Of a DNA stretch of 64,000 nucleotides, positions 1-9,828 are shown piece by piece (the stretch's first letter is position 1; every line of letters begins with the position of its first letter). Both the position numbers and the translations under genes were made by a program. Below the pieces are notes generated by a model, which was not told the origin of the DNA, ran no database searches, and saw only the letters and a list, made by a program, of their open reading frames with translations. Source of the stretch: Giardia intestinalis (lineage: Eukaryota); assembly GCA_000002435.2 (NCBI GenBank), contig CM018793.1. One strand, 5' to 3'.

Positions 1-3000
1 CATACCATCATTGCGCACAAGATCTGCTTCCTTGTCGATCAATAGCTTCACTGCACGCATATTTCCCTGCTGTGCTGCAAACATAAGGGCTGACCAACCG
101 TCCCTGTTCTGTTTTCCGCTTTGAATTAGGTAGGCTTTGATGTCGGCCTCATTTCCAAGTGCTACCGCTTGCATTAACCGTGTATTGCCGTACCAGTCGA
201 CCAGGTCTGTCAGAATAACTTGTTGACCAATCGTATTAGGAATGGAGGTGCGAGGACTGGAGACAGGGGTAATTACATCGGGAAGATATCCAACAGAGCC
301 CATAATTCCCTGCAATCGCTCTTCTTGTTCGTTATAGGCTTGTGATTTGGCTAAATATGCTTTTTTATATCGCTTTACCTCACCCCGCAAGTCTTCGACT
401 TCTTGCACTAAAGCATCAGATAGACTTACATCTGAACCTAGGTGGTGAAGGTCAGTCAAGGTCAAGCCATTGCTAGGTAAAACAGGATTAGTCTTATCTG
501 GTTCAGCAAATTGTTTGGCCTTTAGCTCAGCTATAGCGGACGATAAAGCAGAATTTTCAGCCTGAAGCCTCAAACGCGCATCCTCTGACTCACGTAACTG
601 TATGGCTTTTCGAAGGTATCCTGATTTGTACTTAAATACTCTGTCCTTTAACTCTTTTTCCGATAACGGGTTGATGTTCGACCTAGCATAATCAGCTTTT
701 GTAAGACGCAATAGAGCATTATCTTTGCGAAGATCCTCTAGTTCTCGTTGCAGTTCGGCAAGTGTGGGCTCGTGAGCCCTATCATGCAGGGATGACGAAT
801 GTGTAGCAAGGAATAAGTCATCGACAGGTTTAGATTCATCGGAGACCTTCTGTGCCAGGACGTCCCCGGTGGGCTGGGAGAGCAGGGCCTCCTGGAGGCG
901 CTTGATCTCGCGGTCCTTCTCGGCCAGGAGCGCGTCGTAGTCGGTGGTGGTCTGGGCCAGGCGCGGGCTCGCGGCTCCGCTAGCGACGGCGTCCTCGAGG
1001 CGCTTGCTGAGGCCTTCGTTCTCCTTGACCTTTTCTGCCAGTCGGCCAAGGGCGCTTTGGATTGCAGCCCGGTCTGCCTGCTCGTTGGCGCGCAGCTGCT
1101 GCCGGAGATCGTCCAGCGCCTGCTGGTGCCGGGCTTCGTCGGCTGCGCGAGCCTCTTCCGCGGCCCGGAGAAGGGCAGGATAGTCAATGGCGGGCTCGGC
1201 GGCTGCGGCCTGGAGGCGGGCAAGCTCTTCGTCACGGGCTTGGAGGGCCTCTTCAAGGGCCTGGATTCGGGCTGCTGCCCCGGGCTCTTCGGATTCGAGA
1301 GATCTCGGGTCCTGGGCGGCGAGCCTCTCCTGAAGCCTGGAGATCTCGGCGTTCTTCCGTTCGGCATCTGTCCTTGCTTCCGCAGCGGCATCTTCTAGAG
1401 CCCGGATGCGAGCCGTAAGTCCATCAATGGTAACTGGCAATTCGCCCTCGGCGCTTGCAGATTCCACACCCTGGACGATATTGCCCATGAGTTGTGTAAC
1501 CAGGCTGCCGTTGTCCTGAACCTTGTCGGCGAGCTGGTTGATAGCTGTTTGCAGACCATCTGCAGGAGACCGCGTTGCAGAAAGTGCGTCTCTGAGTTGG
1601 GCAATCTCGTCGTCCTTCTGTGCCAGGACGTCCCCGGTGGGCTGGGAGAGCAGGGCCTCCTGGAGGCGCTTGATCTCGCGGTCCTTCTCGGCCAGGAGCG
1701 CGTCGTAGTCGGTGGTGGTCTGGGCCAGGCGCGGGCTCGCGGCTCCGCTAGCGACGGCGTCCTCGAGGCGCTTGCTGAGGCCTTCGTTCTCCTTGACCTT
1801 TTCTGCCAGTCGGCCAAGGGCGCTTTGGATTGCAGCCCGGTCTGCCTGCTCGTTGGCGCGCAGCTGCTGCCGGAGATCGTCCAGCGCCTGCTGGTGCCGG
1901 GCTTCGTCGGCTGCGCGAGCCTCTTCCGCGGCCCGGAGAAGGGCAGGATAGTCAATGGCGGGCTCGGCGGCTGCGGCCTGGAGGCGGGCAAGCTCTTCGT
2001 CACGGGCTTGGAGGGCCTCTTCAAGGGCCTGGATTCGGGCTGCTGCCCCGGGCTCTTCGGATTCGAGAGATCTCGGGTCCTGGGCGGCGAGCCTCTCCTG
2101 AAGCCTGGAGATCTCGGCGTTCTTCCGTTCGGCATCTGTCCTTGCTTCCGCAGCGGCATCTTCTAGAGCCCGGATGCGAGCCGTAAGTCCATCAATGGTA
2201 ACTGGCAATTCGCCCTCGGCGCTTGCAGATTCCACACCCTGGACGATATTGCCCATGAGTTGTGTAACCAGGCTGCCGTTGTCCTGAACCTTGTCGGCGA
2301 GCTGGTTGATAGCTGTTTGCAGACCATCTGCAGGAGACCGCGTTGCAGAAAGTGCGTCTCTGAGTTGGGCAATCTCGTCGTCCTTCTGTGCCAGGACGTC
2401 CCCGGTGGGCTGGGAGAGCAGGGCCTCCTGGAGGCGCTTGATCTCGCGGTCCTTCTCGGCCAGGAGCGCGTCGTAGTCGGTGGTGGTCTGGGCCAGGCGC
2501 GGGCTCGCGGCTCCGCTAGCGACGGCGTCCTCGAGGCGCTTGCTGAGGCCTTCGTTCTCCTTGACCTTTTCTGCCAGTCGGCCAAGGGCGCTTTGGATTG
2601 CAGCCCGGTCTGCCTGCTCGTTGGCGCGCAGCTGCTGCCGGAGATCGTCCAGCGCCTGCTGGTGCCGGGCTTCGTCGGCTGCGCGAGCCTCTTCCGCGGC
2701 CCGGAGAAGGGCAGGATAGTCAATGGCGGGCTCGGCGGCTGCGGCCTGGAGGCGGGCAAGCTCTTCGTCACGGGCTTGGAGGGCCTCTTCAAGGGCCTGG
2801 ATTCGGGCTGCTGCCCCGGGCTCTTCGGATTCGAGAGATCTCGGGTCCTGGGCGGCGAGCCTCTCCTGAAGCCTGGAGATCTCGGCGTTCTTCCGTTCGG
2901 CATCTGTCCTTGCTTCCGCAGCGGCATCTTCTAGAGCCCGGATGCGAGCCGTAAGTCCATCAATGGTAACTGGCAATTCGCCCTCGGCGCTTGCAGATTC

Positions 3001-6000
3001 CACACCCTGGACGATATTGCCCATGAGTTGTGTAACCAGGCTGCCGTTGTCCTGAACCTTGTCGGCGAGCTGGTTGATAGCTGTTTGCAGACCATCTGCA
3101 GGAGACCGCGTTGCAGAAAGTGCGTCTCTGAGTTGGGCAATCTCGTCGTCCTTCTGTGCCAGGACGTCCCCGGTGGGCTGGGAGAGCAGGGCCTCCTGGA
3201 GGCGCTTGATCTCGCGGTCCTTCTCGGCCAGGAGCGCGTCGTAGTCGGTGGTGGTCTGGGCCAGGCGCGGGCTCGCGGCTCCGCTAGCGACGGCGTCCTC
3301 GAGGCGCTTGCTGAGGCCTTCGTTCTCCTTGACCTTTTCTGCCAGTCGGCCAAGGGCGCTTTGGATTGCAGCCCGGTCTGCCTGCTCGTTGGCGCGCAGC
3401 TGCTGCCGGAGATCGTCCAGCGCCTGCTGGTGCCGGGCTTCGTCGGCTGCGCGAGCCTCTTCCGCGGCCCGGAGAAGGGCAGGATAGTCAATGGCGGGCT
3501 CGGCGGCTGCGGCCTGGAGGCGGGCAAGCTCTTCGTCACGGGCTTGGAGGGCCTCTTCAAGGGCCTGGATTCGGGCTGCTGCCCCGGGCTCTTCGGATTC
3601 GAGAGATCTCGGGTCCTGGGCGGCGAGCCTCTCCTGAAGCCTGGAGATCTCGGCGTTCTTCCGTTCGGCATCTGTCCTTGCTTCCGCAGCGGCATCTTCT
3701 AGAGCCCGGATGCGAGCCGTAAGTCCATCAATGGTAACTGGCAATTCGCCCTCGGCGCTTGCAGATTCCACACCCTGGACGATATTGCCCATGAGTTGTG
3801 TAACCAGGCTGCCGTTGTCCTGAACCTTGTCGGCGAGCTGGTTGATAGCTGTTTGCAGACCATCTGCAGGAGACCGCGTTGCAGAAAGTGCGTCTCTGAG
3901 TTGGGCAATCTCGTCGTCCTTCTGTGCCAGGACGTCCCCGGTGGGCTGGGAGAGCAGGGCCTCCTGGAGGCGCTTGATCTCGCGGTCCTTCTCGGCCAGG
4001 AGCGCGTCGTAGTCGGTGGTGGTCTGGGCCAGGCGCGGGCTCGCGGCTCCGCTAGCGACGGCGTCCTCGAGGCGCTTGCTGAGGCCTTCGTTCTCCTTGA
4101 CCTTTTCTGCCAGTCGGCCAAGGGCGCTTTGGATTGCAGCCCGGTCTGCCTGCTCGTTGGCGCGCAGCTGCTGCCGGAGATCGTCCAGCGCCTGCTGGTG
4201 CCGGGCTTCGTCGGCTGCGCGAGCCTCTTCCGCGGCCCGGAGAAGGGCAGGATAGTCAATGGCGGGCTCGGCGGCTGCGGCCTGGAGGCGGGCAAGCTCT
4301 TCGTCACGGGCTTGGAGGGCCTCTTCAAGGGCCTGGATTCGGGCTGCTGCCCCGGGCTCTTCGGATTCGAGAGATCTCGGGTCCTGGGCGGCGAGCCTCT
4401 CCTGAAGCCTGGAGATCTCGGCGTTCTTCCGTTCGGCATCTGTCCTTGCTTCCGCAGCGGCATCTTCTAGAGCCCGGATGCGAGCCGTAAGTCCATCAAT
4501 GGTAACTGGCAATTCGCCCTCGGCGCTTGCAGATTCCACACCCTGGACGATATTGCCCATGAGTTGTGTAACCAGGCTGCCGTTGTCCTGAACCTTGTCG
4601 GCGAGCTGGTTGATAGCTGTTTGCAGACCATCTGCAGGAGACCGCGTTGCAGAAAGTGCGTCTCTGAGTTGGGCAATCTCGTCGTCCTTCTGTGCCAGGA
4701 CGTCCCCGGTGGGCTGGGAGAGCAGGGCCTCCTGGAGGCGCTTGATCTCGCGGTCCTTCTCGGCCAGGAGCGCGTCGTAGTCGGTGGTGGTCTGGGCCAG
4801 GCGCGGGCTCGCGGCTCCGCTAGCGACGGCGTCCTCGAGGCGCTTGCTGAGGCCTTCGTTCTCCTTGACCTTTTCTGCCAGTCGGCCAAGGGCGCTTTGG
4901 ATTGCAGCCCGGTCTGCCTGCTCGTTGGCGCGCAGCTGCTGCCGGAGATCGTCCAGCGCCTGCTGGTGCCGGGCTTCGTCGGCTGCGCGAGCCTCTTCCG
5001 CGGCCCGGAGAAGGGCAGGATAGTCAATGGCGGGCTCGGCGGCTGCGGCCTGGAGGCGGGCAAGCTCTTCGTCACGGGCTTGGAGGGCCTCTTCAAGGGC
5101 CTGGATTCGGGCTGCTGCCCCGGGCTCTTCGGATTCGAGAGATCTCGGGTCCTGGGCGGCGAGCCTCTCCTGAAGCCTGGAGATCTCGGCGTTCTTCCGT
5201 TCGGCATCTGTCCTTGCTTCCGCAGCGGCATCTTCTAGAGCCCGGATGCGAGCCGTAAGTCCATCAATGGTAACTGGCAATTCGCCCTCGGCGCTTGCAG
5301 ATTCCACACCCTGGACGATATTGCCCATGAGTTGTGTAACCAGGCTGCCGTTGTCCTGAACCTTGTCGGCGAGCTGGTTGATAGCTGTTTGCAGACCATC
5401 TGCAGGAGACCGCGTTGCAGAAAGTGCGTCTCTGAGTTGGGCAATCTCGTCGTCCTTCTGTGCCAGGACGTCCCCGGTGGGCTGGGAGAGCAGGGCCTCC
5501 TGGAGGCGCTTGATCTCGCGGTCCTTCTCGGCCAGGAGCGCGTCGTAGTCGGTGGTGGTCTGGGCCAGGCGCGGGCTCGCGGCTCCGCTAGCGACGGCGT
5601 CCTCGAGGCGCTTGCTGAGGCCTTCGTTCTCCTTGACCTTTTCTGCCAGTCGGCCAAGGGCGCTTTGGATTGCAGCCCGGTCTGCCTGCTCGTTGGCGCG
5701 CAGCTGCTGCCGGAGATCGTCCAGCGCCTGCTGGTGCCGGGCTTCGTCGGCTGCGCGAGCCTCTTCCGCGGCCCGGAGAAGGGCAGGATAGTCAATGGCG
5801 GGCTCGGCGGCTGCGGCCTGGAGGCGGGCAAGCTCTTCGTCACGGGCTTGGAGGGCCTCTTCAAGGGCCTGGATTCGGGCTGCTGCCCCGGGCTCTTCGG
5901 ATTCGAGAGATCTCGGGTCCTGGGCGGCGAGCCTCTCCTGAAGCCTGGAGATCTCGGCGTTCTTCCGTTCGGCATCTGTCCTTGCTTCCGCAGCGGCATC

Positions 6001-9000
6001 TTCTAGAGCCCGGATGCGAGCCGTAAGTCCATCAATGGTAACTGGCAATTCGCCCTCGGCGCTTGCAGATTCCACACCCTGGACGATATTGCCCATGAGT
6101 TGTGTAACCAGGCTGCCGTTGTCCTGAACCTTGTCGGCGAGCTGGTTGATAGCTGTTTGCAGACCATCTGCAGGAGACCGCGTTGCAGAAAGTGCGTCTC
6201 TGAGTTGGGCAATCTCGTCGTCCTTCTGTGCCAGGACGTCCCCGGTGGGCTGGGAGAGCAGGGCCTCCTGGAGGCGCTTGATCTCGCGGTCCTTCTCGGC
6301 CAGGAGCGCGTCGTAGTCGGTGGTGGTCTGGGCCAGGCGCGGGCTCGCGGCTCCGCTAGCGACGGCGTCCTCGAGGCGCTTGCTGAGGCCTTCGTTCTCC
6401 TTGACCTTTTCTGCCAGTCGGCCAAGGGCGCTTTGGATTGCAGCCCGGTCTGCCTGCTCGTTGGCGCGCAGCTGCTGCCGGAGATCGTCCAGCGCCTGCT
6501 GGTGCCGGGCTTCGTCGGCTGCGCGAGCCTCTTCCGCGGCCCGGAGAAGGGCAGGATAGTCAATGGCGGGCTCGGCGGCTGCGGCCTGGAGGCGGGCAAG
6601 CTCTTCGTCACGGGCTTGGAGGGCCTCTTCAAGGGCCTGGATTCGGGCTGCTGCCCCGGGCTCTTCGGATTCGAGAGATCTCGGGTCCTGGGCGGCGAGC
6701 CTCTCCTGAAGCCTGGAGATCTCGGCGTTCTTCCGTTCGGCATCTGTCCTTGCTTCCGCAGCGGCATCTTCTAGAGCCCGGATGCGAGCCGTAAGTCCAT
6801 CAATGGTAACTGGCAATTCGCCCTCGGCGCTTGCAGATTCCACACCCTGGACGATATTGCCCATGAGTTGTGTAACCAGGCTGCCGTTGTCCTGAACCTT
6901 GTCGGCGAGCTGGTTGATAGCTGTTTGCAGACCATCTGCAGGAGACCGCGTTGCAGAAAGTGCGTCTCTGAGTTGGGCAATCTCGTCGTCCTTCTGTGCC
7001 AGGACGTCCCCGGTGGGCTGGGAGAGCAGGGCCTCCTGGAGGCGCTTGATCTCGCGGTCCTTCTCGGCCAGGAGCGCGTCGTAGTCGGTGGTGGTCTGGG
7101 CCAGGCGCGGGCTCGCGGCTCCGCTAGCGACGGCGTCCTCGAGGCGCTTGCTGAGGCCTTCGTTCTCCTTGACCTTTTCTGCCAGTCGGCCAAGGGCGCT
7201 TTGGATTGCAGCCCGGTCTGCCTGCTCGTTGGCGCGCAGCTGCTGCCGGAGATCGTCCAGCGCCTGCTGGTGCCGGGCTTCGTCGGCTGCGCGAGCCTCT
7301 TCCGCGGCCCGGAGAAGGGCAGGATAGTCAATGGCGGGCTCGGCGGCTGCGGCCTGGAGGCGGGCAAGCTCTTCGTCACGGGCTTGGAGGGCCTCTTCAA
7401 GGGCCTGGATTCGGGCTGCTGCCCCGGGCTCTTCGGATTCGAGAGATCTCGGGTCCTGGGCGGCGAGCCTCTCCTGAAGCCTGGAGATCTCGGCGTTCTT
7501 CCGTTCGGCATCTGTCCTTGCTTCCGCAGCGGCATCTTCTAGAGCCCGGATGCGAGCCGTAAGTCCATCAATGGTAACTGGCAATTCGCCCTCGGCGCTT
7601 GCAGATTCCACACCCTGGACGATATTGCCCATGAGTTGTGTAACCAGGCTGCCGTTGTCCTGAACCTTGTCGGCGAGCTGGTTGATAGCTGTTTGCAGAC
7701 CATCTGCAGGAGACCGCGTTGCAGAAAGTGCGTCTCTGAGTTGGGCAATCTCGTCGTCCTTCTGTGCCAGGACGTCCCCGGTGGGCTGGGAGAGCAGGGC
7801 CTCCTGGAGGCGCTTGATCTCGCGGTCCTTCTCGGCCAGGAGCGCGTCGTAGTCGGTGGTGGTCTGGGCCAGGCGCGGGCTCGCGGCTCCGCTAGCGACG
7901 GCGTCCTCGAGGCGCTTGCTGAGGCCTTCGTTCTCCTTGACCTTTTCTGCCAGTCGGCCAAGGGCGCTTTGGATTGCAGCCCGGTCTGCCTGCTCGTTGG
8001 CGCGCAGCTGCTGCCGGAGATCGTCCAGCGCCTGCTGGTGCCGGGCTTCGTCGGCTGCGCGAGCCTCTTCCGCGGCCCGGAGAAGGGCAGGATAGTCAAT
8101 GGCGGGCTCGGCGGCTGCGGCCTGGAGGCGGGCAAGCTCTTCGTCACGGGCTTGGAGGGCCTCTTCAAGGGCCTGGATTCGGGCTGCTGCCCCGGGCTCT
8201 TCGGATTCGAGAGATCTCGGGTCCTGGGCGGCGAGCCTCTCCTGAAGCCTGGAGATCTCATCGTCCTTTCGCGCTAATACGTCACTGATGGGTTGAGAGA
8301 GAAGCAAATCATTCAAGTTCATTTTGGAGGATTGAATATCATATGCAGGAGTAGGAGCCATTCCCAACATAACTTCATCTAGTAAGTTGTGGTTTGGCGT
8401 ATAAGGAATTGAGGAGGATATATTGATACACAGGTTTCTCAACCGATCGATTTCTTTATCGCGCTCTTTGAGAAGCTTATGAAATTGGGCCCTTATTTCA
8501 TTGACATCATCTGAAGAAAAGTCAGTATCAGGCATAGAAAGAGGAGCTAGAGACACACCGTATGTTGAGATAAGAAGCTCCCTAAAGCAGTTCATTCCAT
8601 CCCTAATATCGATTGGATACTCGGTATTCTTAAAAGAGTGGTAATCGGCGAACGTCTGATAAATGTTCAACAGGTCGTCACGCAAATCTTCTTTATGATC
8701 ACCAGAAGTAAGTGCTGTATCGACTTTATCAGAATAATCCATCAGCAGTTTTCGACAAACCAGCGGGGCAAGAGTAGGCTGCACACATGTCCCATACACC
8801 GGTACGGATGTTCGACTAAGAAATTGCAATTCAACCTCATCCTGGTTTGTGAGGGTGAAGTCTGTTATGCGCTTTGTTCCACATCTATTTGTCGATGTCA
8901 CGAACTGCTCAAGTATCTGCTTAGCATATGCAAGGTATTCTCTGATATCAGTGTCGGCATTGGAAGCTGCATCACCTAATAAGCGTTGACAGCAGAAGAT

Positions 9001-9828
9001 AGCCCATGTATAATTTTCTTCTACGAGATTCTGCGCTCTGTAACGCGTACAGGCAAGAGAGGCTATATTGATGTAGAGCAAATCTGATCGTATGTCGGCA
9101 AGATCAAGAATAGATTCGCTTATAGCGAAAAGGCCTTTACAAACAAGACTATCTGGCTGCGAACGATGTACAGCAACCTTTTTATAAAGCTTCGAAGCCT
9201 GCTGCCTGTACCTGGTCACCGAGTCATGTTCTTCGGTTAATTCTGGGCTAGTTGAGATAAGGTCCATGGCGAGTGCCCTGCTAAAGTGTTCTAGAGCCTG
9301 TAATACGTCACGGTTTAAGAGGGTTCCATCTAAAGTGGAAAACGTGCTATCGACTTGCTGCAATGTTTCAGAAATCATGTTTGCCGCTTGCAAAATATAT
9401 CCTACTGAATGGTGAATAGCTTTGGCATTGGAGGCAGCGAGTGTGTAACACGCAGACACGGTGTTATATAACAGTGCTACAATATCCAGTAAAACACTAT
9501 TTGCAATTATGGTGAGTGAAGATCCAGTGGACCATATCAGCATGGCCTGTTCAGAGGGCGCTTTAATTTCGGGGCTCTCCCAGGGAAGCATGAACAAGAG
9601 ATCCTTGGCAAGAAGATAGCATTCATAGACAGTATCCATATGAATAGACATGTCAAAGCTGGCTAATATCTTCCGCTTTTCCTTCAACCTTCTAATTACA
9701 TTAGAGATGAGTTCCACAGCCCCTGAAGGGAATATTTGGACCGTAGCTTCTAGCACTGAATAAAAGGACCCATCGTCCTGGGGTTCTAATGGGGGAAGAG
9801 AAGGAATGACGGGCGGTGGCGCGTTCAT
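1..9828 (-). CDS. Giant coiled-coil protein, 3' partial (C-terminus beyond window start). It has a unique ~520-aa N-terminal head (9828->8260), then 9.65 identical 256-aa Ala/Glu/Leu/Arg-rich coiled-coil repeats, then a unique coiled coil (845->~250), then an ankyrin repeat ('GWSALMFAAQQGNMRAVKLLIDKEADLVRNDGM') at 1-130.
   Basis: My translation of the minus strand from ATG 9828..9826 (plus 'cat') found no stop through the head, the whole repeat array and the 3' unique part to position 1. The ORF track lists no long ORF here only because the stop lies off-window. An A/T-rich initiator 'aaaaatttaaaaaattcggagattgATG' precedes the start. The repeat frame reads '...LAQKDDEIAQLRDALSATRSP...DREIKRLQEALLSQPTGDV...'. 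Confidence 0.8.
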   Translation of the reverse strand, partial: MNAPPPVIPSLPPLEPQDDGSFYSVLEATVQIFPSGAVELISNVIRRLKEKRKILASFDMSIHMDTVYECYLLAKDLLFMLPWESPEIKAPSEQAMLIWSTGSSLTIIANSVLLDIVALLYNTVSACYTLAASNAKAIHHSVGYILQAANMISETLQQVDSTFSTLDGTLLNRDVLQALEHFSRALAMDLISTSPELTEEHDSVTRYRQQASKLYKKVAVHRSQPDSLVCKGLFAISESILDLADIRSDLLYINIASLACTRYRAQNLVEENYTWAIFCCQRLLGDAASNADTDIREYLAYAKQILEQFVTSTNRCGTKRITDFTLTNQDEVELQFLSRTSVPVYGTCVQPTLAPLVCRKLLMDYSDKVDTALTSGDHKEDLRDDLLNIYQTFADYHSFKNTEYPIDIRDGMNCFRELLISTYGVSLAPLSMPDTDFSSDDVNEIRAQFHKLLKERDKEIDRLRNLCINISSSIPYTPNHNLLDEVMLGMAPTPAYDIQSSKMNLNDLLLSQPISDVLARKDDEISRLQERLAAQDPRSLESEEPGAAARIQALEEALQARDEELARLQAAAAEPAIDYPALLRAAEEARAADEARHQQALDDLRQQLRANEQADRAAIQSALGRLAEKVKENEGLSKRLEDAVASGAASPRLAQTTTDYDALLAEKDREIKRLQEALLSQPTGDVLAQKDDEIAQLRDALSATRSPADGLQTAINQLADKVQDNGSLVTQLMGNIVQGVESASAEGELPVTIDGLTARIRALEDAAAEARTDAERKNAEISRLQERLAAQDPRSLESEEPGAAARIQALEEALQARDEELARLQAAAAEPAIDYPALLRAAEEARAADEARHQQALDDLRQQLRANEQADRAAIQSALGRLAEKVKENEGLSKRLEDAVASGAASPRLAQTTTDYDALLAEKDREIKRLQEALLSQPTGDVLAQKDDEIAQLRDALSATRSPADGLQTAINQLADKVQDNGSLVTQLMGNIVQGVESASAEGELPVTIDGLTARIRALEDAAAEARTDAERKNAEISRLQERLAAQDPRSLESEEPGAAARIQALEEALQARDEELARLQAAAAEPAIDYPALLRAAEEARAADEARHQQALDDLRQQLRANEQADRAAIQSALGRLAEKVKENEGLSKRLEDAVASGAASPRLAQTTTDYDALLAEKDREIKRLQEALLSQPTGDVLAQKDDEIAQLRDALSATRSPADGLQTAINQLADKVQDNGSLVTQLMGNIVQGVESASAEGELPVTIDGLTARIRALEDAAAEARTDAERKNAEISRLQERLAAQDPRSLESEEPGAAARIQALEEALQARDEELARLQAAAAEPAIDYPALLRAAEEARAADEARHQQALDDLRQQLRANEQADRAAIQSALGRLAEKVKENEGLSKRLEDAVASGAASPRLAQTTTDYDALLAEKDREIKRLQEALLSQPTGDVLAQKDDEIAQLRDALSATRSPADGLQTAINQLADKVQDNGSLVTQLMGNIVQGVESASAEGELPVTIDGLTARIRALEDAAAEARTDAERKNAEISRLQERLAAQDPRSLESEEPGAAARIQALEEALQARDEELARLQAAAAEPAIDYPALLRAAEEARAADEARHQQALDDLRQQLRANEQADRAAIQSALGRLAEKVKENEGLSKRLEDAVASGAASPRLAQTTTDYDALLAEKDREIKRLQEALLSQPTGDVLAQKDDEIAQLRDALSATRSPADGLQTAINQLADKVQDNGSLVTQLMGNIVQGVESASAEGELPVTIDGLTARIRALEDAAAEARTDAERKNAEISRLQERLAAQDPRSLESEEPGAAARIQALEEALQARDEELARLQAAAAEPAIDYPALLRAAEEARAADEARHQQALDDLRQQLRANEQADRAAIQSALGRLAEKVKENEGLSKRLEDAVASGAASPRLAQTTTDYDALLAEKDREIKRLQEALLSQPTGDVLAQKDDEIAQLRDALSATRSPADGLQTAINQLADKVQDNGSLVTQLMGNIVQGVESASAEGELPVTIDGLTARIRALEDAAAEARTDAERKNAEISRLQERLAAQDPRSLESEEPGAAARIQALEEALQARDEELARLQAAAAEPAIDYPALLRAAEEARAADEARHQQALDDLRQQLRANEQADRAAIQSALGRLAEKVKENEGLSKRLEDAVASGAASPRLAQTTTDYDALLAEKDREIKRLQEALLSQPTGDVLAQKDDEIAQLRDALSATRSPADGLQTAINQLADKVQDNGSLVTQLMGNIVQGVESASAEGELPVTIDGLTARIRALEDAAAEARTDAERKNAEISRLQERLAAQDPRSLESEEPGAAARIQALEEALQARDEELARLQAAAAEPAIDYPALLRAAEEARAADEARHQQALDDLRQQLRANEQADRAAIQSALGRLAEKVKENEGLSKRLEDAVASGAASPRLAQTTTDYDALLAEKDREIKRLQEALLSQPTGDVLAQKDDEIAQLRDALSATRSPADGLQTAINQLADKVQDNGSLVTQLMGNIVQGVESASAEGELPVTIDGLTARIRALEDAAAEARTDAERKNAEISRLQERLAAQDPRSLESEEPGAAARIQALEEALQARDEELARLQAAAAEPAIDYPALLRAAEEARAADEARHQQALDDLRQQLRANEQADRAAIQSALGRLAEKVKENEGLSKRLEDAVASGAASPRLAQTTTDYDALLAEKDREIKRLQEALLSQPTGDVLAQKDDEIAQLRDALSATRSPADGLQTAINQLADKVQDNGSLVTQLMGNIVQGVESASAEGELPVTIDGLTARIRALEDAAAEARTDAERKNAEISRLQERLAAQDPRSLESEEPGAAARIQALEEALQARDEELARLQAAAAEPAIDYPALLRAAEEARAADEARHQQALDDLRQQLRANEQADRAAIQSALGRLAEKVKENEGLSKRLEDAVASGAASPRLAQTTTDYDALLAEKDREIKRLQEALLSQPTGDVLAQKVSDESKPVDDLFLATHSSSLHDRAHEPTLAELQRELEDLRKDNALLRLTKADYARSNINPLSEKELKDRVFKYKSGYLRKAIQLRESEDARLRLQAENSALSSAIAELKAKQFAEPDKTNPVLPSNGLTLTDLHHLGSDVSLSDALVQEVEDLRGEVKRYKKAYLAKSQAYNEQEERLQGIMGSVGYLPDVITPVSSPRTSIPNTIGQQVILTDLVDWYGNTRLMQAVALGNEADIKAYLIQSGKQNRDGWSALMFAAQQGNMRAVKLLIDKEADLVRNDGM
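846..8259 (-). repeat. Intragenic tandem array with a 768-bp unit and 9.65 copies at 100% identity (copy boundaries e.g. 847/1615/2383/.../7759). The unit encodes a 256-aa coiled-coil repeat and is about 65% GC against about 45% GC flanks.
   Basis: Exact 768-nt periodicity is visible directly. The ORF track shows identical spurious peptides at offsets of exactly 768. Identity breaks at 845/846 (a vs t) and at 8260 (a vs g). Degenerate older copies of the motif flank the array, e.g. the head-side 'ISDVLARKDDEISRLQERLAAQDPRS'. Confidence 0.95.

What the first reader, a model, noticed from the sequence alone, without database searches (positions are those of the whole stretch)
846..8259. Perfect 9.65-copy, 768-bp in-frame tandem array inside a giant coiled-coil/ankyrin gene
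About 7.4 kb of a single CDS consists of 768-bp units with no mismatch between copies, each encoding a 256-aa Ala/Glu/Arg/Leu-rich coiled-coil module. Degenerate relatives of the same motif flank the array. The 'ISDVLARKDDEISRLQ' motif in the head resembles the 'GDVLAQKDDEIAQLR' motif in the unit, so older diverged copies surround a core that was amplified or homogenised very recently by unequal crossing-over or gene conversion. Arrays like this are hypervariable between isolates, can act as length-variable spacers in cytoskeletal stalks, and are the places where short-read assemblies collapse or mis-count copies.
Basis: seen in the sequence. Interest (0 to 1): 0.8.

Follow-up and report, generated by a model that had tools for sequence, protein, structure and literature searches.

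The report
Identical repeat array in Giardia gene
A Giardia gene for a very long rod-like protein contains 9.65 letter-perfect copies of a 768-base module, and related Giardia species carry their own perfect arrays in the same gene, which makes it a clear but conceptually familiar case of repeats kept identical by recombination.

Summary
Window 846-8259 is a mismatch-free array of period 768, 9.65 copies, in frame.

It lies on the minus strand in Giardia intestinalis WB gene GL50803_93294. The ATG is at 9828, and 28 codons run off the left end of the window.

The 2007 assembly gave 1,256 aa with 1.65 units. The PacBio reference implies 3,304 aa. Short-read assemblies of other isolates carry 0.65 or 1.65 units, so collapse is real.

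The G. muris ortholog has its own perfect array of 11.36 x 681 bp. Its unit is homologous to the WB unit but strongly diverged. An assemblage-B-like unit survives as a 767-bp contig mislabelled Streptomyces. The array is therefore ancient and continually homogenised (concerted evolution), not a one-off amplification or an artefact.

Only one 19-aa relic flanks the array, on the N-terminal side. Copy-number variation between isolates could not be tested.

The protein has four parts:
- a Giardia-specific helical head that is probably BRO1-like
- about 2,470 aa of heptad-patterned helices
- a short unique coiled coil
- two to three ankyrin repeats

Its most likely role is a long structural tether, which is inferred rather than shown.

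Two oddities remain: high GC3 in the array and depressed synonymous divergence in part of the unit.

Moderate interest; a new member of a known kind.

The parts
1..9828 (-). CDS of Giardia intestinalis WB GL50803_93294. ATG at 9828-9826. It runs off the left end of the window, with 28 C-terminal codons missing. The reconstructed protein is 3,304 aa, 359 kDa, pI 4.7.
   Evidence: Open frame. Organism and gene identity come from exact-sequence look-ups of neighbouring proteins and of the head. The old 1,256-aa model P0029 is head + 1.65 units + tail. Length and mass.
8419..9828 (-). N-terminal head, about aa 1-470: an all-helical domain with one beta-hairpin, specific to Giardia and probably a divergent BRO1-like domain.
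8260..8316 (-). Degenerate relic of the end of a repeat unit (LNDLLLSQPISDVLARKDD), immediately upstream of the array.
   Evidence: Local alignment to unit residues 150-169 gives z=6.7, 0 of 300 shuffles. DNA identity is 32 of 44, and the differences are mostly AT-ending synonymous codons in the relic against GC-ending ones in the array.
846..8259 (-). Perfect tandem array: 9 full 768-bp units (1348-8259) plus a 502-bp partial unit (846-1347). It encodes 2,471 aa. GC is 64 % against about 46 % in the flanks, and GC3 is 0.70 against 0.40-0.43 in the head and tail.
7492..8259 (-). First full unit (reference copy, 256 aa). It forms five long helices broken at Pro/Gly and carries four copies of the motif [KR][DN]xE[IL]xxL[QR]xx[LA].
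   Evidence: AF2 single-sequence model: about 90 % helix, pLDDT 65. Heptad a/d hydrophobic contrast: z=6.0 against shuffles. Motif scan. Only sub-threshold Pfam coiled-coil hits.
846..1347 (-). Terminal partial unit ('A part', the first 167 codons of the unit). The array ends at ...LLSQPTGDVLAQK, the same motif as the relic upstream of the array.
199..845 (-). Non-repetitive C-terminal helical region with two conserved KYKxxYLxK motifs (604-636 and 343-375).
   Evidence: Collinear BLASTP matches to the G. muris tail, E=9e-12 and 2e-14. Coordinates. No significant similarity to the unit.
1..198 (-). Ankyrin repeats, starting at DWYGNTRLM and cut by the window end. WB has two to three repeats and G. 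muris has more.
   Evidence: Pfam Ank_2 E=2.2e-9, Ank E=4.8e-7, both above their cut-offs. Full C-terminus in P0029. G. muris tail.

Best explanation
The array is a genuine, ancient intragenic tandem repeat kept letter-perfect by concerted evolution. Unequal exchange and gene conversion between misaligned units, on sister chromatids or among the four genome copies, keep replacing variants, so units stay identical within a genome while the consensus drifts between lineages.

It sits in GL50803_93294, a Giardia-specific gene that is transcribed and translated. The reconstructed product is 3,304 aa and has four parts:
- an N-terminal helical head of about 470 aa, probably BRO1-like
- 2,471 aa of repeated alpha-helical modules with a heptad pattern, broken at Pro/Gly
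- about 215 aa of unique coiled coil
- two to three C-terminal ankyrin repeats

The most likely role of the array is to supply length, as a long flexible rod or tether that holds the head and the ankyrin end far apart. That would be up to about 370 nm if fully extended. Under this reading selection acts on helical character, reading frame and overall length rather than on the exact sequence.

Shown: the array, its frame, the homology and divergence of units across lineages, collapse in short-read assemblies, and expression.
Inferred: the recombination mechanism, the selection on length, and the tether function.
For: Array and frame:
- Perfect period 768 over 7,414 nt, and a single open frame.

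Identity and collapse:
- The window is G. intestinalis WB, new PacBio reference.
- The old model GL50803_93294 is the same protein with 1.65 units.
- An AII SPAdes contig has 1.65 units. P15 and DH have 0.65. DH has a chimeric ARK|NAEISRLQ junction that requires an internal unit boundary.
- The WB PacBio reads have N50 12.7 kb, 10 % are over 20 kb, and depth is about 290x, so many reads span the 7.4-kb array. The assembly was checked against optical maps.

Concerted evolution:
- The G. muris ortholog TNJ27745.1 has a homologous head (28 % identity) and a homologous tail.
- It carries a perfect DNA array of 11.36 x 681 bp.
- The two units are homologous and collinear (local score 152 against 76.6 +/- 10.3 in shuffles, z=7.3, 0 of 1000) but share only short motifs.
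- A 767-bp contig, L006, is exactly one circularly permuted unit at 81.9 % nt identity with no gaps. That shows the same 768-bp period in a third, assemblage-B-like lineage.

Length:
- The arrays encode 2,471 aa (WB) and 2,580 aa (G. muris) despite different unit sizes.

Structure:
- About 90 % helix in the AF2 model.
- Heptad contrast z=6.0 for WB and 4.2 for G. muris.

Constraint:
- dN/dS is 0.05-0.09 across the gene, including the repeat.

Expression:
- Poly(A) RNA-seq split reads in at least two isolates made the gene an intron candidate, which PCR then rejected (PMC3610916).
- Spectral counts in two of three GlActin pull-down replicates (PMC8552679 supplement 3).
Against: - Copy number and perfect identity in WB rest on one long-read assembly. 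No raw reads or second long-read assembly could be examined.
- The WB and G. muris assemblies come from the same laboratory, platform and pipeline (RS II, HGAP, Quiver). The similar array sizes of about 7.5 kb could therefore partly reflect a technical ceiling rather than selection on length.
- Two species are too few to show length conservation.
- No localisation or phenotype exists for this protein. It is absent from the 608-protein localisation atlas and from the disc-associated protein supplements.
- The MS evidence comes from a long, unspecific interactor list.
- Heptad periodicity is significant but interrupted, and the Fourier peak is at 3.6 rather than 3.5 residues. The modules could fold back into helical bundles rather than form one extended coiled coil.
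Confidence: 0.78

Rival explanations
1. Assembly or polishing artefact. The true locus has one or two units (as in the 2007 assembly), or it has units that differ, and the long-read assembler or consensus caller inflated or homogenised the array.
For: Every non-PacBio assembly seen has 0.65-1.65 units. Only one long-read assembly of this species was available. The WB and G. muris assemblies share one pipeline. Reads that lie wholly inside an array cannot be placed uniquely, which can blur rare variants.
Against: A perfect 768-bp repeat must collapse with Sanger, 454 or Illumina reads, so the short versions are the expected artefact. The DH model carries a chimeric junction that needs an internal B-to-A boundary. 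PacBio read N50 of 12.7 kb at about 290x spans 7.4 kb, and optical maps showed no misassembly. An independent species has the same architecture. A third lineage yields a contig of exactly one period, the signature of a collapsed multi-copy array. Earlier Giardia work already warned that repeat numbers were condensed by assembly (PMC2996952).
Confidence: 0.07
2. A one-off, very recent amplification private to the WB laboratory line, with no maintenance and no functional meaning for the length.
For: Zero mismatches over 7.4 kb imply a very recent common ancestor of all units. Copy number in other G. intestinalis isolates is unknown. Allelic copy-number variation is documented for the Giardia vspA6 and vspC5 repeats.
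Against: G. muris has an equally long, equally perfect array of a homologous but diverged unit. An AII isolate and DH have at least 1.65 units, with the same unit sequence. A B-like lineage gives a unit-length contig. Purifying selection acts on the unit, with dN/dS 0.05.
Confidence: 0.08
3. A contingency or antigen-like locus. Copy number is the selected variable, for immune evasion or phase variation, as in VSP tandem repeats.
For: Thirty WB vsp genes carry tandem repeats of 105-516 bp with 2 to more than 20 copies and allelic variation (PMC2996952).
Against: The N-terminus (MNAPPPVIPSLPPLEPQDD...) is not hydrophobic. There are no CXXC motifs. The protein is acidic and helical with ankyrin and BRO1-like modules, which are typical of cytoplasmic proteins. 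The array is conserved in the mouse parasite G. muris. Signal peptide and topology were not formally predicted.
Confidence: 0.04
4. The GC-rich unit was acquired from a high-GC bacterium. The only database hit to the unit is labelled Streptomyces.
For: The array has 64 % GC in a 46 % GC genome. The only hit in 5.8 billion proteins is 'hypothetical protein, partial [Streptomyces sp. SS]'.
Against: That record is an isolated 767-bp contig equal to one repeat period, and it aligns without gaps to the Giardia unit. No other hit appeared in a collection that draws on NCBI and UniRef, although Streptomyces genomes are, from my own knowledge, very densely sampled. Its divergence from WB in the B part (dS 1.6) matches that of an assemblage-B-like head fragment (dS 1.7). 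The unit is homologous to the G. muris unit and to a relic in the AT-richer head. Contamination is the simple reading.
Confidence: 0.02

Closest known systems
Giardia ankyrin-repeat / coiled-coil proteins (Protein 21.1, ARP-3 class; head-stalk proteins GASP-180 and GHSP-115)
   Same: A Giardia-lineage protein that pairs ankyrin repeats with a long coiled-coil region. The G. muris ortholog is annotated 'Ankyrin repeat protein 3'. The window is full of ankyrin-repeat genes. Head-stalk proteins are cytoskeletal; GASP-180 is at the anterior axonemes (PMC13315228).
   Different: Here the ankyrin repeats are few and C-terminal, and the N-terminus is a different, BRO1-like helical domain. From my own knowledge of Elmendorf et al. 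2005, head-stalk proteins have the ankyrin head at the N-terminus. No sequence comparison with GASP-180 was possible. No head-stalk protein is known to me to carry a perfect kilobase-scale array.
Tandem repeats in Giardia vsp genes (vspA6/CRP170: about 22 x 195 bp; vspC5: about 25 x 105 bp; vsp122: 3 x 516 bp)
   Same: In-frame, near-identical tandem units in the same genome. [quoted passage not shown]
   Different: Those are cysteine-rich surface antigens. Their largest unit is 516 bp with 3 copies. The present unit is 768 bp with 9.65 copies, in a cytoplasmic-type protein, and the array is conserved across Giardia species.
BRO1-domain proteins (ALIX/Vps31, HD-PTP, BROX) and the three Giardia VPS31 paralogs
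   Same: A BRO1-like N-terminal fold followed by a long helical or coiled-coil region, as in ALIX (Bro1 + V domain). The Giardia VPS31A-C paralogs are 95-142 kDa, and one is annotated 'spindle pole protein' (PMC8394649 supplement). Fold searches put Bro1 domains on top.
   Different: The Pfam score is below its cut-off. G. muris has no hit. A PDB sequence search finds no Bro1. hhalign to ALIX aligns only 33 columns, 101-133 against 105-137. GL50803_93294 is not among the listed GiVPS31 genes. The helical region is about ten times longer than a V domain.
Homogenised long repeat modules in structural proteins elsewhere (spider aciniform and tubuliform spidroins with about 200-aa units; trypanosome MARPs); from my own knowledge, not checked here
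   Same: Units of hundreds of residues that are almost identical within a gene yet diverged between species. This is explained by concerted evolution, with selection on bulk physical properties.
   Different: These are unrelated proteins and organisms, secreted fibres or microtubule binders. Here the lineage is an asexual or rarely sexual tetraploid protist, and the units are literally identical.

Membership tests
Intragenic tandem repeat under concerted evolution | Units are more alike within a genome than between orthologous arrays of different lineages | tested here: met
   Identity is 100 % within WB and 100 % within G. muris. WB against the B-like unit is 81.9 % nt. WB against G. muris units shows only motif-level similarity.
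Intragenic tandem repeat under concerted evolution | Arrays in different lineages are homologous (same gene, homologous unit), not independent inventions | tested here: met
   Head and tail are orthologous. Unit-to-unit alignment gives z=7.3, 0 of 1000 shuffles, with collinear motif order.
Intragenic tandem repeat under concerted evolution | Copy number varies between individuals, alleles or isolates | not testable with these tools
   Only collapsed short-read versions of other isolates were reachable.
Coiled-coil protein | Long alpha-helices with heptad (a/d) hydrophobic periodicity | tested here: met
   AF2 gives helices of 28-67 residues. Best-register a/d contrast is z=6.0 for WB and 4.2 for G. 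muris, and 44 % of 28-residue windows exceed the 95th percentile of shuffles. The helices are interrupted by 8 Pro and 11 Gly per unit.
Coiled-coil protein | Oligomerisation into a supercoiled rod | not testable with these tools
   A monomer model cannot show this (pTM 0.34).
Ankyrin-repeat protein (Giardia ARP-3 / Protein 21.1 class) | Pfam ankyrin repeats above the gathering score, plus a non-zinc-finger additional region | tested here: met
   Ank_2 scores 38.2 bits (cut-off 27.3) and Ank 30.2 (cut-off 21.1). The class definition is in PMC7000408. The G. muris ortholog is named ARP-3.
Giardia head-stalk proteins (GASP-180 / GHSP-115) | N-terminal ankyrin 'head' followed by a C-terminal coiled-coil 'stalk' (definition recalled from Elmendorf et al. 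2005) | tested here: not met
   The domain order is reversed, with the ankyrin repeats at the extreme C-terminus. Sequence homology to GASP-180 was not tested.
BRO1 domain (Pfam PF03097; ALIX/Vps31 family) | Score above the Pfam gathering threshold | tested here: not met
   18.2 bits against 35.1 for WB. P15 gives E=0.015 and G. muris has no hit.
BRO1 domain (Pfam PF03097; ALIX/Vps31 family) | Bro1 fold (beta-hairpin plus TPR-like helical solenoid, about 350 residues) | tested here: inconclusive
   [not shown]
BRO1 domain (Pfam PF03097; ALIX/Vps31 family) | Binding of ESCRT-III (CHMP4/Snf7-type) C-terminal helices | not testable with these tools
   This needs pull-down or structure work. GL50803_93294 is absent from the ESCRT interactome supplements searched.

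The most novel reading that the evidence does not exclude
The gene encodes a length-conserved, sequence-free molecular ruler. A BRO1-like, possibly ESCRT-III- or membrane-binding head and an ankyrin end are held about 0.35-0.4 um apart by roughly 2,500 residues of helical repeats. The unit sequence and unit size turn over freely (256 aa x 9.65 in G. intestinalis, 227 aa x 11.36 in G. muris), while the total length stays constant under stabilising selection. It would set a dimension of a Giardia-specific structure. The local excess of GC3 and the depressed dS would then reflect GC-biased gene conversion driven by constant intra-array recombination, in an organism whose sexual recombination is still debated.
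Probability: 0.15. Interest if true: 0.75.

Novelty: new member of a known kind. Interest (0 to 1): 0.5.

Why it matters
Practical consequences:
- The widely used gene model GL50803_93294 (1,256 aa) under-represents the protein by about 2,000 residues.
- The models from P15 and DH are also collapsed, and the DH model has a chimeric junction. This affects proteomic quantification, primer and tag design, orthology tables and read-mapping. The locus has already produced a false intron candidate.
- A public 'Streptomyces' record is in fact one unit of this Giardia repeat.

Biological interest:
- The locus is an unusually clean natural experiment in concerted evolution. Kilobase-scale arrays are letter-perfect in two species and have diverged almost beyond recognition between them.
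- This occurs in a tetraploid, binucleate protist in which mitotic recombination and gene conversion are thought to erase heterozygosity.
- If the conserved total length is real, it points to a long tether that has not been localised, possibly a fourth, highly divergent BRO1-family protein in a parasite with a reduced ESCRT system.

Tried and rejected
Searches that gave little or nothing:
- TRF found nothing because of its 500-nt period limit.
- Word-indexed homolog searches with the head, alone or as a profile, returned only fragments. The exhaustive HMMER scan was needed to find the orthologs.
- A PDB sequence search with the head profile found no Bro1.
- afdb50 was unavailable.

Attempts to find independent copy counts, all of which failed:
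- I mis-pasted a 10.65-copy protein into the last cluster look-up, so the negative result says nothing about 9.65 copies.
- The neighbouring gene's exact product is not on record.
- Logan contigs from two runs end at codon 466, before the array.

Literature and supplement searches for 93294:
- Negative in the localisation atlas, the ESCRT interactomes, the nanopore structural-variant tables and the disc-associated protein lists.
- The long-read comparative papers do not discuss the locus.

Ideas rejected:
- An overlapping antisense or alternate-frame gene as the cause of low dS. The frames are nearly open in WB and in the B-like unit but are full of stops in G. muris, so they are a by-product of GC-ending codons.
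- Codon selection for expression as the cause of high GC3. The head and tail of the same gene have GC3 of 0.40-0.43.
- Bacterial origin of the unit (see rivals).
- Degenerate units in the tail.

Full report
OBSERVATION. The window sequence satisfies w[i]=w[i+768] without exception from 846 to 7491. The perfect array is therefore 846-8259: 7,414 nt, 9.654 copies, no mismatch. The repeat finder shows ten in-register copies spaced exactly 768 nt apart. Tandem Repeats Finder reported nothing because its longest period is 500. Of the six frames, only one on the minus strand is open across the array, with 3,281 codons open from 9843 to the left end of the window. The first ATG is at 9828. The 254-aa and 224-aa ORFs that the bacterial-code ORF list shows once per unit lie in other frames and are by-products. 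The array has 64 % GC against about 46 % for the rest of the window. No other long direct repeat exists in the remaining 55 kb.

ORGANISM AND GENE. Pfam scans of neighbouring ORFs show an intron-poor eukaryote rich in ankyrin-repeat genes, with an SRP receptor, PI3/PI4-kinase, RNase HII, phospholipase B and others. Exact-sequence look-ups place four of these proteins in Giardia intestinalis WB, on a 4.02-Mb contig of the new reference. The head of the repeat gene belongs to the cluster of XP_001709253.1, 'hypothetical protein GL50803_93294', 1,256 aa. That old model is head (523 aa) + 1.65 units + tail (310 aa) and is otherwise identical to the window. Adding the eight extra units gives 3,304 aa, 359 kDa, pI 4.7. 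The window lacks the last 28 codons.

IS THE ARRAY REAL? I could not reach raw reads, so this is argued indirectly.
- A perfect 768-bp repeat cannot be resolved by Sanger, 454 or Illumina reads, and the collapsed forms are exactly what is seen. The 2007 WB assembly has 1.65 units. An Illumina/SPAdes contig of an AII-type isolate has 1.65 units. P15 and DH have 0.65 units.
- The DH model reads ...SDVLARK|NAEISRLQ... It fuses the head junction with an internal unit boundary, which can arise only if internal boundaries exist in that isolate.
- The WB reference was built from PacBio RS II reads with N50 12.7 kb, 10 % over 20 kb and 3.6 Gb of data. It was polished with Quiver and checked against optical maps (PMC7000408). 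A 7.4-kb array is well within spanning range.
- The G. muris ortholog has the same construction (see the next section).
- A third lineage yields a contig whose length equals one period (see the next section).
- One caveat remains. The two long-read assemblies come from one laboratory and one pipeline, so the exact counts and the absolute identity still deserve a read-level check.

COMPARATIVE EVIDENCE. An exhaustive HMMER scan of 1.84 billion representative proteins with the 523-aa head found only Giardia proteins. They are GLP15_4739 (P15, 91 % identity) and TNJ27745.1 of G. muris (3,881 aa, head 28 % identical, E=1.5e-48). Head and tail align collinearly between the species. They share EENYTWAIFCC, two KYKxxY[LI]xK motifs and DWYGNTRLM at the start of the ankyrin repeats.

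The G. muris gene contains 11.36 copies of a 681-bp (227-aa) unit with no mismatch at the DNA level, at L002:4693-12430. The WB and G. muris units share only short motifs by BLAST, 47 % over 30 aa. A local alignment is nevertheless far above composition-matched shuffles (152 against 76.6 +/- 10.3, z=7.3, 0 of 1000) and keeps the motif order. The units are therefore homologous.

The only database hit to the WB unit is a 255-aa 'hypothetical protein, partial [Streptomyces sp. SS]' on a 767-bp contig. That contig aligns without gaps to one circularly permuted WB unit at 81.9 % nt identity. Its divergence in the B part (dS 1.6) equals that of an assemblage-B-like head fragment from a metagenome (dS 1.7). 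I read it as Giardia contamination. A contig of exactly one period is what a collapsed multi-copy array yields.

Units are thus identical within genomes, 18 % diverged between assemblages, and almost unrecognisable between species. This is the pattern of concerted evolution, and it shows that the array predates the split of the two Giardia species.

FLANKS. The last 19 residues of the head (LNDLLLSQPISDVLARKDD) match unit residues 150-169 (z=6.7). At the DNA level 32 of 44 bases agree, and the relic uses AT-ending synonymous codons where the array uses GC-ending ones. The array also ends at ...LLSQPTGDVLAQK, so the same motif brackets it. The head junction KDD|EISRLQ looks like a hybrid of the two internal motifs KDDEIAQLR and KNAEISRLQ. 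The rest of the head and both halves of the tail show no significant similarity to the unit (z 0.2, 0.9, 2.4). The 12-residue motif [KR][DN]xE[IL]xxL[QR]xx[LA] occurs four times per WB unit and twice per G. muris unit. A similar stretch, KERDKEIDRLRNL, lies in the head.

THE PROTEIN.
- Unit. It has 21 % Ala, 12.5 % Leu, 11 % Glu and 9 % Arg, with 8 Pro and 11 Gly. An AF2 model is about 90 % helix, with helices of 28-67 residues broken at Pro/Gly (pLDDT 65). The hydrophobic a/d contrast in the best heptad register is well above shuffles (z=6.0 for WB, 4.2 for G. muris). The Fourier peak is nearer 3.6 than 3.5 residues. 'Segmented, coiled-coil-prone helical rod' is the fair description. A fold-back bundle is not excluded.
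- Tail. It carries Pfam-significant ankyrin repeats.

EXPRESSION. Franzen et al. listed GL50803_93294 among intron candidates supported by at least 5 split poly(A) RNA-seq reads in at least 2 isolates, and PCR rejected 13 of the 14 candidates (PMC3610916). So the gene is transcribed. I infer that the split reads were a repeat artefact. Steele-Ogus et al. record spectral counts for it in two of three GlActin pull-down replicates, within a list of hundreds of proteins (PMC8552679). So it is translated, but an actin association is not established. No localisation was found.

MECHANISM. What is shown is the pattern. What is inferred is its cause: repeated unequal exchange and gene conversion between misaligned units, plus whatever homogenises the four genome copies of WB. 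The whole gene is under purifying selection, with dN/dS 0.05-0.09 for WB against P15. The arrays encode 2,471 aa and 2,580 aa in the two species although the unit sizes differ. This suggests selection on total length, up to about 370-380 nm if extended, but it does not prove it. I therefore favour a long tether or spacer linking a BRO1-like head to an ankyrin end. This functional reading is the weakest step.

UNEXPLAINED. GC3 is 0.70 in the WB unit against 0.40-0.43 in the head and tail of the same gene, and 0.42-0.63 in neighbouring genes. Synonymous divergence is depressed in the first 167 codons of the unit.
- WB against P15: dS 0.21, compared with 0.54 in the head and 0.57 in the tail (Fisher p=7e-6).
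- WB against the B-like unit: dS 0.47 in that part but 1.61 in the rest of the unit, compared with 1.74 in the head.
- AI against AII isolates: 0 differences in 1,270 nt of repeat against 18 in 2,414 nt of flank (p=7e-4).

Expression-linked codon selection cannot explain a contrast within one gene. An overlapping ORF is not conserved. GC-biased gene conversion inside the array is my working hypothesis, but the G. muris array shows no GC3 excess.

COMPARISON AND VERDICT. The closest known things are Giardia's ankyrin / coiled-coil proteins (ARP-3, head-stalk proteins), the tandem repeats of Giardia vsp genes, BRO1 + coiled-coil proteins such as ALIX/Vps31, and homogenised long modules in other structural proteins. 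The phenomenon is of a known kind, and the sequence is already public. In the literature I could search, however, the array, its collapse in older models, its conservation in G. muris and the BRO1-like head are not described. Novelty: new member of a known kind. Interest: 0.5.

Noticed in passing
L006:1-767 (NCBI GCA_000302615.1, AKXV01000073.1, labelled Streptomyces sp. SS): This 767-bp 'Streptomyces' contig is one circularly permuted unit of the Giardia repeat (81.9 % nt identity, no gaps, GC3 0.75). It is almost certainly Giardia contamination, assemblage-B-like, in a bacterial assembly. Its length equals the repeat period, as expected from a collapsed multi-copy array.
   Followed up: partly
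[not shown]
   Followed up: partly
window 846-8259, especially the first 501 nt of each unit (for example 7759-8259): GC3 is 0.67-0.80 and synonymous divergence is 2.5- to 4-fold lower than in the head, the tail and the last third of the unit, in three independent comparisons (AI/AII, A/E, A/B-like). GC-biased gene conversion is a candidate cause, but the G. muris array shows no GC3 excess.
   Followed up: partly
window 738-8277, both strands: Bacterial-code ORF calling lists a 254-aa ORF (minus strand, another frame) and a 224-aa ORF (plus strand) once per unit. These frames are nearly stop-free in WB and in the B-like unit but not in G. muris. They are by-products of GC-ending codons, not genes.
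   Followed up: yes
P0050 (DHA2_152437) and P0048 (GLP15_4739); L003:3001-6003: The public gene models of the DH and P15 orthologs contain only 0.65 unit. The DH model has a chimeric junction (ARK|NAEISRLQ) that mixes the head junction with an internal unit boundary. Both are probably collapsed.
   Followed up: partly
L004:10001-11401 and L005:44-1441 (Logan contigs of SRR10662873 and SRR10368400): Contigs from two independent runs both stop at codon 466 of the gene, about 170 nt before the perfect array begins. The reason was not determined; it could be a shared k-mer, an allelic difference or coverage.
   Followed up: no
PMC3610916 Figure S8; gene GL50803_93294: The gene was one of 14 RNA-seq cis-intron candidates, 13 of which PCR rejected. 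The split reads probably arose from the mis-assembled repeat. This is my inference and is not stated in the paper.
   Followed up: partly
L002:3001-14646 (G. muris CM016927.1): The G. muris ortholog ('Ankyrin repeat protein 3', 3,881 aa) carries 11.36 perfect copies of a 681-bp unit. Its tail is longer, with more ankyrin repeats than in WB. The upstream neighbours differ from WB, while the downstream neighbours are ankyrin-repeat genes in both species.
   Followed up: partly
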